46,583 nucleotides of DNA from Treponema sp. UBA3819 (GTDB lineage: Bacteria; Spirochaetota; Spirochaetia; Treponematales; Treponemataceae), in NCBI GenBank assembly GCA_002369025.1, contig DFDV01000173.1, positions 1 through 46,583 of the forward strand, in the 5' to 3' direction. The position numbers and the translations under genes were made by a program. The first letter of the stretch is position 1. Each line of letters opens with the position of its first letter. The notes under the pieces were generated by a model. That model made no database searches, was not told the origin of the DNA, and was given only the letters and a program-made list of their open reading frames with translations. Below are positions 20,454 to 30,499 of this stretch, piece by piece.

Positions 20454-22775
20454 CTATAACAGTTTTTCAAAAAACTCTGCCGGCCAGGACGCATACATGT
20501 TGCCAAAGTGATCCGCATTGAAAATCTGCACGTGGGAGCCTATCGTATTCTGCACGAGATACTTATACAAATCGGCATAGAGTATGTCTTTTTTCTCTGC
20601 AATCTTGTCGGTAAAGTTGTGGGTAAAGCGGTTTGAAAGCCAGACTTTAAGTTCCACGCTGTAAATGTCGGCAAAGGATGTCTCCGAGCCGTTGGCCGCG
20701 GTGAATGCAAGTACGCCGGTATAGCCTTTGGCCGTATGCAGGACACTGGCCGAGTAGCAGGGCTCTGCAACGATGAGCATTTTTCGGAAACGCTTGCTTT
20801 CGCTCATGGCGGAAAGCGTAGCCTGCATTTTTTCGGTGGTAAAGCCTTCGCTTCCCCTGCCCTGCCAGACAAACTGTCCGAGCTCGCTGTTTCCGTTTCG
20901 GTTTGCACCGTGTCCCGACCAGAACCAGAGGATGTCGGCATTTTCGTCTGTCTCCAATACAGTGGGCTTTTCGACAAGGAATGAATGACTGTCCCTGTTT
21001 TCGCTGCGCTTGTCTATGGAAATGCTTTTACCCTGCATAATCTGCGTTATGTCGTCAGCGGTCAGTTCTGAAAGCAGGTAGTCAATCTGAACGTCATCTG
21101 TATAGAGGTTTTCTCCGTTCAGACGGGCATAGATTTCCCCGGGCTTCTTGTTCCGCTTGTTTGTGGCAATGTCATCAGCAAGAATCAAAATGATATGGTC
21201 ATCGTCGTAGGGGTCTTTCTTTAGATTTTTTATGAGGTGATAGACATAGAGTGCGTCTGCCTGATGGCGGTAATTTGCCCAGCCGTTTGAGGCGGCAATG
21301 ATGACTGCCCAGCGGCTCTTTGATTTCCCGTAGGAAATAGATATGCTTTTGCTTTCCTCCATTTCCGCTTCATCAATCAGTGTTTGCCACTCCCAGCTTG
21401 CGCGATTTTTGGCAGTGCGTCCGCTTCCGTCTGCTGAGGTGTAGTCCAAGGGAACAAAGGCACCCTCAACCACTGCCCAATGGGTATAGACTGTCCTCAG
21501 TGCGCTGGTAAGCGTTTCTGCGTCAAAGTCAAGCAGCCCTGTTGCACCGTTGATATTCAGGGTATTGTTTTTGTTGATGTCTTCAAAGGCAAATGCCATG
21601 CCCAGAGGTGACCATGCGGATTTTCCGTCCTTTCCCGTACCCGTAAAACTCTTTATGGCATTGTTTGCCGCTTTGTTTGAGAAGGGAGTCGTGGCCTCAT
21701 TTTTGATGCAGTAGGCGGCGGCAAAACCGCAGAGAAGCAGCGAGTCGTACAGGTGGGCTTCTCCAACCGCTGCCTTCTGACCAAAAAATGCCTCGTACAT
21801 TACGGCAAACCCACTCGACGGGTCTGCATAGGGAGCCGTTCCCTCCACGCCCTCGGCTTTGTCTCCGTATTCCTTCAAAAAATCTGCGGTAAAGGCCGTG
21901 TCGGTAAAAAGCAGTTTTGGCGCACTGTCTCCCATTTGCTCCCGCAGCGTCAGCACGACGGCCACATCCTTGTATGAGGAGAGCGCACAAATCACATAGT
22001 CTGCCCCGCTTTTGAGGACCGAAACCGCTGCACTTTCAAGGGGAATGGCATCAGTTCCTACGGTTCCCGCTTCGTTTCCGCTTCCGATGCTAGCAGAGAT
22101 ATAGCGCACGTTCTGTAGGGATTCAAGTTTCAGTTCCGTAGCCATATAGGGCATCCATTCAAAAAAAGTCTTGCCGTAAATATCTGCACTTGACAGAAAG
22201 GAGACTTTTTTTCCGCCATAGGCCGACACTTTTGCAAGCAGGGCTTCTGTCTGCGAAACATCGCTTTCTGTCAGCGTCCACAAAAAGGGCTCGCTGGCAC
22301 TTGCTGAAGCGGCATTCATGGCAAAGGCTCGGATAAGGCTTTCGCTTGATGCGCAGGGAGCGATAAGGGGCTTTTTGGTGAGGAAGCACTGCTCTGCAAA
22401 AATCTGCACATGGTCAGAATAGCGTGGCCCGATAATGGCAAACAAATCATCGCGCTTTGAAAGTTTTTCCGCCGTGGAGGCAAGGTCTATGCTGTCCTCG
22501 TCATACCATTCAAGGGCAAGGGTAAAGGGCGTGGAAAATTTAGTGTCTTCAAGTGCATTTTTGAGCGTAGTAAGATACCAGTCGGCAATGCGGTGAAAGC
22601 GCGTATTCTGCTCTCCGCTGGCGGGAAGTACCACGGCAACTTTTATCTGCCGTCGGTTGTCGCTTCCTGATGAATCATCATTGGAGCAAGATATAAAGGT
22701 AAAAAATATGGTAGAAAGCAGTAGCACAATGATTTTTGCAATTGTAAAAGTGTAAAGCCTATTAGTTTTCTTCAT
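20454..22775 (-). CDS. lipoprotein: type-1 (LIV/ANF-receptor-like) binding domain fused to a C13 legumain-like cysteine peptidase
   Basis: Lipobox FISC. N-terminal KVAVVLP...AIIGPRYS...YGKTF. C-terminal WAVIIAASNGWANYRHQAD, DDHIILILADDIA, WSGHG (catalytic His) and AEPCYSAS (catalytic Cys). Confidence 0.88.
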   Translation of the reverse strand: MKKTNRLYTFTIAKIIVLLLSTIFFTFISCSNDDSSGSDNRRQIKVAVVLPASGEQNTRFHRIADWYLTTLKNALEDTKFSTPFTLALEWYDEDSIDLASTAEKLSKRDDLFAIIGPRYSDHVQIFAEQCFLTKKPLIAPCASSESLIRAFAMNAASASASEPFLWTLTESDVSQTEALLAKVSAYGGKKVSFLSSADIYGKTFFEWMPYMATELKLESLQNVRYISASIGSGNEAGTVGTDAIPLESAAVSVLKSGADYVICALSSYKDVAVVLTLREQMGDSAPKLLFTDTAFTADFLKEYGDKAEGVEGTAPYADPSSGFAVMYEAFFGQKAAVGEAHLYDSLLLCGFAAAYCIKNEATTPFSNKAANNAIKSFTGTGKDGKSAWSPLGMAFAFEDINKNNTLNINGATGLLDFDAETLTSALRTVYTHWAVVEGAFVPLDYTSADGSGRTAKNRASWEWQTLIDEAEMEESKSISISYGKSKSRWAVIIAASNGWANYRHQADALYVYHLIKNLKKDPYDDDHIILILADDIATNKRNKKPGEIYARLNGENLYTDDVQIDYLLSELTADDITQIMQGKSISIDKRSENRDSHSFLVEKPTVLETDENADILWFWSGHGANRNGNSELGQFVWQGRGSEGFTTEKMQATLSAMSESKRFRKMLIVAEPCYSASVLHTAKGYTGVLAFTAANGSETSFADIYSVELKVWLSNRFTHNFTDKIAEKKDILYADLYKYLVQNTIGSHVQIFNADHFGNMYASWPAEFFEKLL

Positions 22776-23886
22776 ATATGCGCTCTTTTTCTATGGCAGT
22801 TTGGGTTGCATTCTGTACAAGGTCAGAAAGTTTTTCTGTATACTTCTTTGAAATCACCAGTTCGGTGTAACCGTCCGCAAGCGTAAAAGTCTGATGGTGG
22901 GGAAACGTTCCGCCCATCCATTGCTCCACGCATTTTTGAATGACGCGGTCAATATGCTTTACTACAGAGAAAGGCACTTGCTGGGTATAGACAGACAAAT
23001 CCGAATCCATGCCCACGGTATAGAAGGAATTTGCACGCTTTTCGCGGTTATAGCGCAAGAGCCCCTGTATGCTTCCGCCACAGAGGGGAAAATAGAGGTC
23101 AAAGGGATTCCATTTTTCGGCAAAAAGTGCCAGTGCATAGGCGAACTCCGCACTGTCGAATCCACTTGTGTCCAAGTCATTTTTAAGTTCCAGAGCGGCA
23201 AAACTCAGCTTGGAAAAGGCAGAGGCTTTTTCATCAGACCATTCGGTAAAATCGGAGCCGTATATTTGTTTGTCCCAGTCTGCCCCATAGCCCGCAATAA
23301 AGCCCTGCAGTGCATCATTTATTACAGCTGAATCGCTGTTTGCAAGCAGGGAAAGCACATGGGAATCTTCCTTTTCAGCAAGCAGTGCCTTTGCGGCGAC
23401 CCCCGCAAGATAACTCGCGCCATAGAGGGGAACGTAGACCGTGTTCAGAGCGGCATCCTCGCTTTCTTTCTTTGCATCAAAGAGCAGAAATGAAACCTTC
23501 TCTGGCTTTGTGGCAGTAAAGCCTGAAAGATAGGAAAGGTAGCCGGGGTCTGCAAGAACAATCAGTATGGAAGTACCCTGCTCCTTTGAAAGGTTGAAGC
23601 AGCGGGGAATGTAGTCATCAAGGAGTTTTTTTGCATCGGTCCAGTTCGTAGGACACACGTCATAGACCCACAGGGATTTTTGTATGCCTGTCTTTTGGAT
23701 GCCGGAACAGAATGCGTCAACAGCAGAATTGTCTCCCAGACCATTAGGCGGATAAAAGGCAACAATACCACCCTTGTATACAGTCTCATCCGAATTCTCG
23801 CTAGGATCACTCTTGCAGGAAGCGGTAAAAAGAGAAAATGTTGCGCACAAAAGCATAAAGGCAGCAAGACGAAGAAAAACTTTCAT
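22762..23886 (-). CDS. BMP/PnrA-family substrate-binding lipoprotein
   Basis: Lipobox TASC; GLGDNS, YGASYLAG, FPLCGGS and VGMDSD...FSVVKHID. Start placed at ATG 23886. Confidence 0.8.
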   Translation of the reverse strand: MKVFLRLAAFMLLCATFSLFTASCKSDPSENSDETVYKGGIVAFYPPNGLGDNSAVDAFCSGIQKTGIQKSLWVYDVCPTNWTDAKKLLDDYIPRCFNLSKEQGTSILIVLADPGYLSYLSGFTATKPEKVSFLLFDAKKESEDAALNTVYVPLYGASYLAGVAAKALLAEKEDSHVLSLLANSDSAVINDALQGFIAGYGADWDKQIYGSDFTEWSDEKASAFSKLSFAALELKNDLDTSGFDSAEFAYALALFAEKWNPFDLYFPLCGGSIQGLLRYNREKRANSFYTVGMDSDLSVYTQQVPFSVVKHIDRVIQKCVEQWMGGTFPHHQTFTLADGYTELVISKKYTEKLSDLVQNATQTAIEKERIYEEN

Positions 23887-23932
23887 ATGTATTTCCGTTA
23901 CATTCCTAGCACTCTTAGCTAGTAATGACAAG

Positions 23933-23959
23933 TCAAGCACGGCTGATTGCCGTGCTTGA
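23933..23959 (-). terminator. stem-loop after the MACPF gene (weak terminator or mRNA stabiliser)
   Basis: Perfect 11-bp stem tcaagcacggc-tgatt-gccgtgcttga with a poor U-tract. Confidence 0.55.
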
Positions 23960-30362: not shown

Positions 30363-30425
30363 CGCAAGGGAACATGAGAGTGCTATTGCGAGGAGAAAGG
30401 ATAACAGGGGGGTAAATTTTTTCAT
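28611..30425 (-). CDS. hypothetical lipoprotein, paralog A
   Basis: Lipobox LAAC. ATG 30425 follows a GAAGGAG RBS. Confidence 0.88.
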   Translation of the reverse strand: MKKFTPLLSFLLAIALSCSLAACKNDDDSTEEDPKETVTFDSVDDAAFTVLRSLTDLTQYDTEKVTDEDGSVSGIETLPNDWNTQTFSCDEGFVLDETKETVRSLPVSGFGEALEFFSSIIGESLKESSLTDGRYAWSYSGLGSLTFTKVTGTEDLFATLDVRLSVMPGLTQLRFVSEASANKVLESNNKKFYGDPYYRAGDVIKRKKDGTLWICVRPAGGPFHKEYSYWICLNPTGSGGKSIIDTTQKDYDIYFIAGKAKDESTIIKKYSQTWTYAKKLMTLKTAKAAFHTFASLANEAAWAKENDGSEYAYAQYVYKKLKENGIDLKALHMLSDGKDGPVASKSREYYRDVMFAFAYGSPVNESNRTLSLNNLPKAMKDLDSFKKAAQVKCIQPFFVGYCQTDGITEYLNTSITVPTITYSKHTNKKFMLSLTDSYDETYLSSIGADPKRVLILLTPSGTLITQQILYEKGYADSFAELFCYNYADHLHGFDGKDLIFTEYSSTRNDSAKKADLTANYRYRYKDKNANFHVIVSPELRITDSKGEDKNGNIIKPDAKLYESVYVQREDQALKGNAHFDYWDTSNSFTRYIDDEFTSWHDENE

Positions 30426-30471
30426 AGAAAAACACACTCCTTCAGATTGTATAGTCTATATCTGAATAAAG

Positions 30472-30499
30472 ATTATAACATAAAATGTAATCTTGGCAA
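30472..30499 (-). promoter_or_regulatory. sigma70 promoter of the lipoprotein/MACPF locus
   Basis: TTGCCA, 16-nt spacer, TATAAT with TG extension, and upstream A-tracts. Confidence 0.7.

What the first reader, a model, noticed from the sequence alone, without database searches (positions are those of the whole stretch)
20454..30499. Five-lipoprotein locus: polymorphic lipoproteins, MACPF, BMP binder and ligand-binding legumain (candidate protease-controlled pore-forming system)
Seen: one promoter upstream of five co-oriented genes, all with lipoboxes and short or overlapping intergenic gaps, encoding a MACPF signature and an intact C13 His/Cys dyad. Established: bacterial MACPF proteins such as Bacteroides BSAPs are antibacterial pore formers, many pore-forming toxins need proteolysis, and C13 enzymes (legumain, GPI8) cut after Asn/Asp or act as transpeptidases. 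Inference: the protease, gated by its own binding domain and/or the BMP protein, matures or releases the MACPF, while the variable lipoproteins act as targeting or immunity partners. I know of no characterised system with this composition in spirochaetes.
Basis: partly seen in the sequence, partly recalled or inferred. Interest (0 to 1): 0.85.

Follow-up and report, generated by a model that had tools for sequence, protein, structure and literature searches.

The report
Legumain module with asparagine-cut perforin cargo
A gut Treponema carries a legumain-type protease, predicted to pair with a neighbouring binding protein, beside three membrane-anchored proteins (one perforin-like) that each have a conserved asparagine at the end of their anchor domain, so the protease likely cuts them there to release or activate them.

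Summary
The five co-oriented lipoprotein genes are real. MACPF, BMP and an intact C13 site are confirmed. The conserved core is BMP plus the PBP–C13 fusion: BMP is adjacent in 79 of 80 loci with room, in Treponema and Bacteroidales-type contigs, and a shorter homologous pair is predicted to bind (0.85, best control 0.00). MACPF is optional cargo (8 of 27 dereplicated loci).

The new clue is that all three upstream proteins carry a conserved Asn where the anchor domain ends. It is N187 in the MACPF protein (14/14, at the BACON/MACPF border) and N189 in the unknown family (45/48; 134/137 distant relatives within ±2). Two other unrelated cargo families show the same. The enzyme keeps legumain's Asn pocket. 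The most likely reading is a dedicated Asn-specific maturase or sheddase for an array of swappable lipoprotein payloads. The 'polymorphic lipoproteins' are co-substrates, not immunity proteins. Cleavage, pore formation, target and single-transcript status are untested. One cargo gene is frameshifted near its end in this strain.

The parts
30472..30499 (-). sigma70-like promoter, TTGCCA-16-TATAAT with TG
   Evidence: 11 of 12 matches; a consensus match only; longest listed RNA contig here ends at 30436
28611..30425 (-). cargo lipoprotein 1 (P0005, 604 aa): anchor domain A (about 40-188), conserved Asn189 (codon 29859-29861), payload with no clear structural match
26859..28571 (-). cargo lipoprotein 2 (P0004, 570 aa), paralogue of 1, Asn195 (codon 27987-27989); frameshifted near its C-terminus in this strain
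26780..26914 (-). out-of-frame C-terminal tail of cargo lipoprotein 2
   Evidence: three frames; family profile hit E 2e-10
23967..26669 (-). MACPF lipoprotein (P0003, 900 aa): BACON-like domain 51-188, invariant Asn187 (codon 26109-26111), MACPF about 190-522, unassigned C-terminal region
23933..23959 (-). 11-bp hairpin between MACPF and BMP, without a strong U-run (possible attenuator or RNA-stability element)
22762..23886 (-). BMP/PnrA-fold lipoprotein (P0002, 374 aa), predicted partner subunit of the protease
20454..22775 (-). lipoprotein with type-I periplasmic-binding domain (about 40-445) fused to a C13 legumain domain (488-760); His622 (20910-20912), Cys673 (20757-20759); no C-terminal prodomain

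Best explanation
The locus encodes a membrane-anchored legumain-type protease, predicted to form a complex with the BMP-fold lipoprotein, which likely cuts the three co-encoded lipoproteins after a conserved Asn at the end of their anchor domains. The cut would leave the lipid-anchored stub in the membrane and free or unlock the C-terminal payload. For P0003 this is the whole MACPF plus its C-terminal region, which would then probably assemble pores on a competing gut microbe. The two paralogous lipoproteins are further payload carriers of the same system. Shown: domains, catalytic and S1 residues, gene linkage, position and conservation of the Asn. Predicted: the BMP-PBP complex. Inferred: cleavage, release, ligand control by the two binding folds, pore formation and target.
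For: Core linkage: BMP directly upstream of the full-length fusion in 77 of 80 loci with at least 1.4 kb upstream, downstream in 2, absent in 1; 26 of 27 after dereplication. Complex (homologous pair from L123): score 0.85, best of 3 controls 0.00; the mark was reached by 116 of 157 solved and 2 of 215 mismatched pairs (roughly, own alignments); runs agree in at least 92% of contacts; partner pLDDT at least 87; all named contacts lie in the PBP domain. Specificity: legumain's S1 residues Arg44, His45, Ser216, Asp231 (PMC4357240 section 12) map to R503, H504, S700 (85/85 each) and N715 (N 70, D 15). Substrate signature: N189 in 45 of 48 dereplicated P0005-family rows against 0.33 mean conservation of the six preceding columns, rank 2 of 570 for excess conservation; N187 in 14 of 14 P0003-family rows. 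BACON-like fold spans 51-188 (Z 8.5, rmsd 2.5, 87 aligned) and MACPF starts at 190 (Z 23.9, rmsd 3.7, 296 aligned). Both Asn lie in local pLDDT dips (62, 67). Of 137 further 50%-cluster representatives of anchor A, 103 have Asn in the aligned column and 134 within 2 residues (background Asn 6.5%), followed by tails of 4 to 789 aa. Two unrelated neighbour families end their first domain the same way (19 of 20 distinct rows; 10 of 11). In 338 genus genomes anchor A occurs in 12, of which 11 have C13, while C13 occurs in 16 (kin not independent). Precedent: BSAP-1 is a lipoprotein MACPF activated by N-terminal cleavage by a clan CD (C11) protease (10.64898/2026.08.05.742979, section 6).
Against: No cleavage is shown. 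G260 keeps an anchor-A gene with its Asn though no C13 was found (85% complete). Three family members have Gln at the site. Some neighbours lack the signature: lipocalin-like proteins, and the 784-aa family beside the second copy has it only in some members; in Bacteroidales-type multi-MACPF arrays only some copies have it. 7 of 27 dereplicated loci show none of the four cargo types within reach. In the MACPF family several other Asn columns are as conserved, and n is only 14 related proteins. The P0005 model has pTM 0.86 over the whole chain, so anchor and payload may stay packed after a nick. Interface residues are not more conserved than average (0.47 vs 0.54; 0.49 vs 0.47). BSAP-1 is cut by the target's protease, not the producer's. 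Not all MACPF proteins are lytic (same paper, section 3). I could not test Asn retention in Bacteroidales genomes lacking C13. Surface versus periplasmic location was not tested.
Confidence: 0.6

Rival explanations
1. The enzyme is a transpeptidase (sortase-, GPI8- or butelase-like): it cuts after the Asn and joins the lipid-anchored stub to another protein or amine, swapping or polymerising payloads on the cell surface.
For: Anchor-only lipoproteins end 2-3 hydrophobic residues after the Asn in three lineages only 45-52% identical, with no payload homology visible after the stop; removing so short a tail makes little sense as shedding. The family profile matches GPI transamidase (E 3e-46) and peptide asparaginyl ligases (E 2e-43) nearly as well as legumain (E 3e-54). 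Gly before the catalytic His and Arg after the Asp231 position resemble GPI8 (recalled, not aligned here).
Against: No anchor-only gene in this locus. P2' residues in anchor-A proteins are mixed, Ser most common. Ligase determinants were not tested. The short-tailed proteins could be decoys or inhibitors.
Confidence: 0.15
2. One reading: a MACPF-centred toxin system in which the variable lipoproteins are receptors, targeting subunits or immunity proteins rather than substrates.
For: In Treponema the P0003-type MACPF nearly always travels with 1-4 P0005-family genes. The same four components co-occur in Bacteroidales-type contigs L090/L092. Two-component MACPF/CDC systems exist (PMC11169675, listing only).
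Against: The lipoproteins carry the same Asn junction and the anchor is fused to many payload lengths. Most BMP-C13 loci have no MACPF (19 of 27). These roles are not exclusive: processed payloads could still partner the MACPF.
Confidence: 0.12
3. BMP and PBP-C13 are a nutrient-sensing or nutrient-scavenging surface protease; the neighbours are just a lipoprotein hotspot and the Asn is a structural cap.
For: Both binding folds keep residues that look like ligand sites (S120, S/T143, Y200, D292, roles recalled from LivJ/mGluR; GD-x-x-Y-x-D and GMD-x-D). Some loci have no Asn-type cargo.
Against: No permease or ATPase partner is conserved beside the pair. Three unrelated anchor folds plus BACON end in Asn at the same topological place. 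Anchor A is almost confined to C13-bearing genomes in the genus.
Confidence: 0.13

Closest known systems
Bacteroidales lipoprotein toxins activated by clostripain-family (C11) surface proteases: BSAP-1/fragipain, BSAP-3 and BcpT/DpnB, CDCL
   Same: Lipid-anchored MACPF precursor, N-terminal cut by a clan CD cysteine protease lipoprotein, predicted release from the membrane (10.64898/2026.08.05.742979 sections 3 and 6; PMC12853789 section 9 describes BACON-bearing BSAPs of unknown activation).
   Different: Protease here is C13 with an Asn-type pocket, not Arg/Lys C11. It is encoded in the same locus, fused to a PBP and paired with a BMP. Most cargo is not MACPF. The host is a spirochaete. No killing is shown.
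Legumain / asparaginyl endopeptidase (MEROPS C13; PDB 4aw9, 5lua)
   Same: Fold family, His-Cys dyad, S1 residues Arg, His, Ser.
   Different: No C-terminal activation peptide or LSAM prodomain; N-terminal PBP domain and lipobox instead; Asp231 position is mostly Asn.
GPI8/PIG-K transamidase and plant peptide asparaginyl ligases
   Same: C13 enzymes that cut off a short C-terminal tail and transfer the acyl part; profile E 3e-46 and 2e-43.
   Different: No GPI pathway or partner subunits seen; ligase activity untested.
BMP/PnrA (TmpC) nucleoside-binding lipoproteins of ABC transporters
   Same: Fold family and several motifs (E 1e-10 to 2fqw).
   Different: No transporter genes conserved beside it; predicted to dock on the protease's PBP domain through its GLGD-x-x-Y-x-D region.
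Bacterial MACPF proteins Mpf2Ba1, GNIP1Aa, Plu-MACPF, Bt_3439
   Same: MACPF core, Z 17.7-23.9.
   Different: Lipid anchor plus BACON-like stalk and a different, unassigned C-terminal region; target unknown.

Membership tests
C13 legumain family | Peptidase_C13 profile above cut-off | tested here: met
   137 bits vs 22.8
C13 legumain family | His-Gly...Cys catalytic dyad | tested here: met
   H622 and C673 in 85 of 85
C13 legumain family | S1 pocket Arg44/His45/Ser216/Asp231 | tested here: met
   R503, H504, S700 invariant; position 231 is Asn in 70, Asp in 15 of 85 (PMC4357240)
C13 legumain family | C-terminal activation peptide/LSAM prodomain of eukaryotic legumain | tested here: not met
   protein ends 13 residues after the Pfam match
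C13 legumain family | Asn-specific proteolytic activity | not testable with these tools
   needs enzyme assay
MACPF superfamily | MACPF profile and fold | tested here: met
   PF01823 53.6 bits vs 21.5; Z 23.9, rmsd 3.7, 296 aligned to 8b6v
MACPF superfamily | two amphipathic TMH regions able to form hairpins | tested here: inconclusive
   alternation is strongest at 259-276 and 369-379; the second hairpin judged by eye only; no pore model
BSAP toxins | lipoprotein with MACPF, optional BACON N-terminal domain | tested here: met
   PMC12853789 section 9
BSAP toxins | produced by Bacteroidales | tested here: not met
   closest named homologues are Treponema
BSAP toxins | adjacent replacement receptor or glycosyltransferase gene | tested here: inconclusive
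   none recognised among flanking genes; receptor unknown
BSAP toxins | bactericidal pore formation | not testable with these tools
   needs killing and liposome assays
BMP/PnrA ABC substrate-binding proteins | Bmp profile | tested here: met
   43.7 bits vs 24.1
BMP/PnrA ABC substrate-binding proteins | cognate permease and ATPase genes in the locus | tested here: not met
   no such conserved neighbour in 104 loci; partners in trans not excluded
GPI8-like transamidase / asparaginyl ligase | ligase-determining residues and transpeptidation | not tested
   only profile scores and short-tail substrates

The most novel reading that the evidence does not exclude
A bacterial legumain acts as a ligand-gated, sortase-like transpeptidase. 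The BMP-PBP heterodimer senses a metabolite, and the enzyme both sheds payloads (including a perforin) and staples them onto anchor-only lipoproteins, giving a protein-level plug-and-play surface display and weapon system shared between Bacteroidales and spirochaetes.
Probability: 0.12. Interest if true: 0.93.

Novelty: new variant of a known kind. Interest (0 to 1): 0.72.

Why it matters
I found no bacterial C13 enzyme with an assigned substrate in the papers searched. This locus names exact candidate bonds (Asn187, Asn189, Asn195) and a partner subunit, so the function of a large uncharacterised family becomes directly testable. It suggests a second route, Asn-specific and co-encoded, for arming gut MACPF proteins beside the known Arg-specific clostripain route. 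It also offers a role for the BACON domain of some BSAP-like proteins (a cleavable stalk) and points to such weaponry in spirochaetes. The anchor-A family (896 clusters at 50% identity, E up to 1e-3) has payloads almost wholly without Pfam match (0 of 71 above cut-off), a pool of unknown effectors. A prodomain-free bacterial legumain or ligase would also be of interest as a protein-engineering enzyme.

Tried and rejected
NCBIfam gave no hit above cut-off for the five window proteins or, apart from repeat models, for 22 neighbours. The P0005 model had no Foldseek match at E up to 0.001 and a best VIA Z of 5.2; weak SH3/Tudor-like rows (Z about 4) are not taken as an assignment. The ESM Atlas gave nothing for P0005 24-300 and only sub-0.9 FISUMP/Lcl_C leads for the MACPF C-terminus. 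An iterated HMM drifted through signal peptides and was discarded; the mature-region rerun converged. No PBP-C13 match in plasmid or phage collections. Among 300 other phylum genomes, 7 had PBP-only matches and none covered the C13 part. The C13 tree (quick method, long branches) puts the Treponema copies on one side of a branch with SH-aLRT 85; it shows neither donor nor direction, so I do not claim transfer from Bacteroidales. RNA contig cover is thin over BMP/C13 in X2 and absent in X15; contigs cannot rank genes, so this is not used as evidence of attenuation. A strong single hairpin after the MACPF stop is seen in only some loci. A whole-genome control in Bacteroidales could not be run because none of the 45 loci offered lies in a held genome. 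Fisher tests overstate because of kinship and are not relied on. A type V pilus reading was considered; only one Mfa-like neighbour turned up and no pilin fold, so it was dropped.
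Full report
OBSERVATION. The window is contig C129 of a 2.36-Mb, 226-contig assembly; its closest named homologues are Treponema. Five minus-strand ORFs between a radical SAM gene and a hydrolase-flavodoxin fusion each begin with a lipoprotein-type signal (judged by eye and by a simple pattern). Pfam gives MACPF, Bmp and Peptidase_C13 above cut-off and nothing for the two upstream paralogues, which are 45% identical. 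The promoter-like site at 30499-30472 is the best in the region. The gaps are 39, 189, 80 and -14 bp. The 189-bp gap holds the out-of-frame tail of gene 2: the break lies in a poly-A run near 26907. A close relative is intact. DNA and RNA contigs of sample S1 agree with the window while run X3 differs there, so the break looks strain-specific rather than an assembly error. An 11-bp hairpin separates MACPF from BMP. RNA contigs from two studies cover parts of the three upstream genes, and one X2 contig (27998-29045) bridges genes 1 and 2. Contigs cannot prove a single transcript, and X2 shares its sample with the probable source of this DNA.

WHAT IS CONSERVED. Many are near-duplicates. Of 91 with a full-length PBP-C13 gene, 80 have at least 1.4 kb upstream; BMP is directly upstream in 77, downstream in 2 and absent in 1. 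Among 27 dereplicated loci with room, BMP is present in 26, MACPF in 8 and an Asn-type anchor family in 19. Named homologues come from Bacteroides, Parabacteroides, Bacteroidaceae, Muribaculaceae and Treponema. I call the unnamed non-Treponema contigs 'Bacteroidales-type' on that basis; their taxonomy was not determined. This genome has a second BMP + PBP-C13 pair on C126 beside an unrelated 784-aa lipoprotein. In 338 genus genomes C13 matches 20 at E up to 0.001. I counted the 16 with E below 1e-7, three of them fragments or broken, and dropped four weak rows. MACPF occurs in 16, of which 10 have C13. The six without C13 carry MACPFs of other types. All 8 genomes with the long P0003 type have C13, and 9 of its 10 copies lie in a C13 locus. 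Anchor A occurs in 12 genomes, 11 with C13. These genomes are kin and mostly incomplete. Gene order varies: G033 has MACPF, three paralogues, BMP, C13, and L090/L092 have MACPF, anchor-A proteins and two BMP + PBP-C13 pairs.

THE PROTEASE AND ITS PARTNER. The C13 domain aligns with human legumain along its length. The dyad and three S1 residues are invariant in 85 distinct homologues; the fourth (Asp231) is Asn in 70 and Asp in 15 (residue roles from PMC4357240, section 12 read in full plus passages). The eukaryotic C-terminal prodomain is missing, so control must come from elsewhere (inference). The N-terminal domain is a type-I PBP of the LivJ/mGluR kind and keeps Ser120, Ser/Thr143, Tyr200 and Asp292; their role in amino-acid binding is recalled, not tested. 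The window's pair is too long for the complex tool, so I folded a homologous pair from L123 (37% and 33% identical to the window's proteins). It scored 0.85 against a best control of 0.00. The mark was reached by 116 of 157 solved and 2 of 215 mismatched pairs, counts that hold only roughly with my own alignments. Runs agreed in at least 92% of contacts and partner pLDDT was at least 87. The interface joins the PBP region equivalent to P319-F330, 385-392 and 434-445 with the BMP region 48-78. It includes near-invariant residues but is not more conserved than average overall. The model supports binding; it does not show it.

THE SUBSTRATE SIGNATURE. I noted this before consulting earlier findings (note 61). 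In the P0005 family an Asn closes the N-terminal domain inside a variable-length linker: 45 of 48 rows after dereplication at 90%, the other three Gln. The model (pLDDT 82, pTM 0.86) dips to 62 there. A profile of this anchor finds 896 clusters. Of the best 150, the 137 new ones have Asn in the aligned column in 103 and within two residues in 134, followed by 4 to 789 residues. The profile contained the Asn column, which biases this slightly. Of 71 such proteins sent to Pfam none passed a cut-off. In the MACPF family Asn187 is present in 14 of 14. The structural alignments place the BACON-like domain at 51-188 and MACPF from 190, so a cut there would free the complete MACPF. Two further neighbour families in Bacteroidales-type loci end their first domain in (D/E)N (19 of 20 distinct rows) or G-x-N (10 of 11). 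Some genes stop 2-3 residues after the Asn, in three lineages 45-52% identical. Against this: an orphan with the Asn in G260 where no C13 was found; neighbours without the motif; other conserved Asn columns in the small MACPF family; and possible packing of anchor and payload after a nick.

MECHANISM. Most likely (0.6), all five proteins are lipidated and sit on one membrane face. BMP docks on the PBP domain, and the C13 domain cuts cargo after the Asn, releasing or unlocking payloads. I put the chance that the freed MACPF is a lytic weapon against other gut microbes at about one half, given cleavage. Ligand gating is a guess from the two binding folds.

KNOWN SYSTEMS AND NOVELTY. It would work like the Bacteroidales lipoprotein toxins armed by C11 proteases (10.64898/2026.08.05.742979: abstract, passages, sections 3 and 6; PMC12853789: passages and section 9; PMC11169675 and PMC9308784: search listing only). 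It is not a BSAP by host, and the protease family, cut residue and co-encoding differ. Nine literature searches showed, in their listings, no description of a bacterial BMP + PBP-C13 module or of a treponemal MACPF system. The library lacks most subscription papers and I opened no supplements. Earlier AI notes of this scan saw the same core and Asn-tailed small lipoproteins in Prevotella-type genomes; they are not independent evidence. What this locus adds is a spirochaete host, large payloads including a MACPF with the Asn at the domain border, and a predicted BMP-PBP complex.

VERDICT. Real, conserved and apparently undescribed: a new variant of protease-armed lipoprotein effectors with precise testable bonds. 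Interest 0.72.

Noticed in passing
L006 10217-16116 (G000:C126): Second BMP + PBP-C13 pair in the same genome, preceded by a 784-aa lipoprotein of an unknown family seen beside the pair in 5 Treponema loci; no consistent Asn junction, but an Arg-Ala motif in the linker.
   Followed up: partly
L072 7268-7708; L123 13158-13559; L108 11905-12309: Anchor-only lipoproteins of 133-146 aa that stop 2-3 hydrophobic residues after the conserved Asn in three divergent lineages; candidate ligation acceptors or protease decoys.
   Followed up: partly
L121 12004-20846; L125 497-6314; L093 6779-10257: Arrays of 3-5 MACPF/BACON lipoproteins next to BMP + PBP-C13 in Bacteroidales-type contigs; only some carry the linker Asn, suggesting multi-component, complement-like pores.
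   Followed up: partly
L100 704-2758; L102 5806-6666: Clostripain (C11) lipoproteins lie in some of the same arrays, so two clan CD proteases can share a locus.
   Followed up: no
L082 4748-5296 and relatives: Anchor-A proteins whose post-Asn payload is a 40-55 aa CxxC...CxxC zinc-ribbon-like peptide.
   Followed up: no
L146 4546-14000 (G307:C30): A different Treponema lipoprotein array with a MACPF lacking a structured N-terminal domain and no C13 in the stretch read.
   Followed up: no
window 14760-17900: Amino-acid ABC permease fused to several tandem SBP_bac_3 modules (1046 aa); the relative in L005 is 1273 aa, apparently with one more module.
   Followed up: no
window 19053-20417: Alpha/beta-hydrolase fused to a flavodoxin-like domain, 36 bp downstream of the C13 gene; not a conserved neighbour beyond close relatives.
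   Followed up: partly
L007 1838-4151 (G033:C9); L054; L055: Several Treponema C13 genes are split or fragmentary, suggesting frequent decay of the module.
   Followed up: no
window 25352-25467: One RNA contig of run X2 skips 114 bases inside the MACPF gene; single contig, unverified.
   Followed up: no
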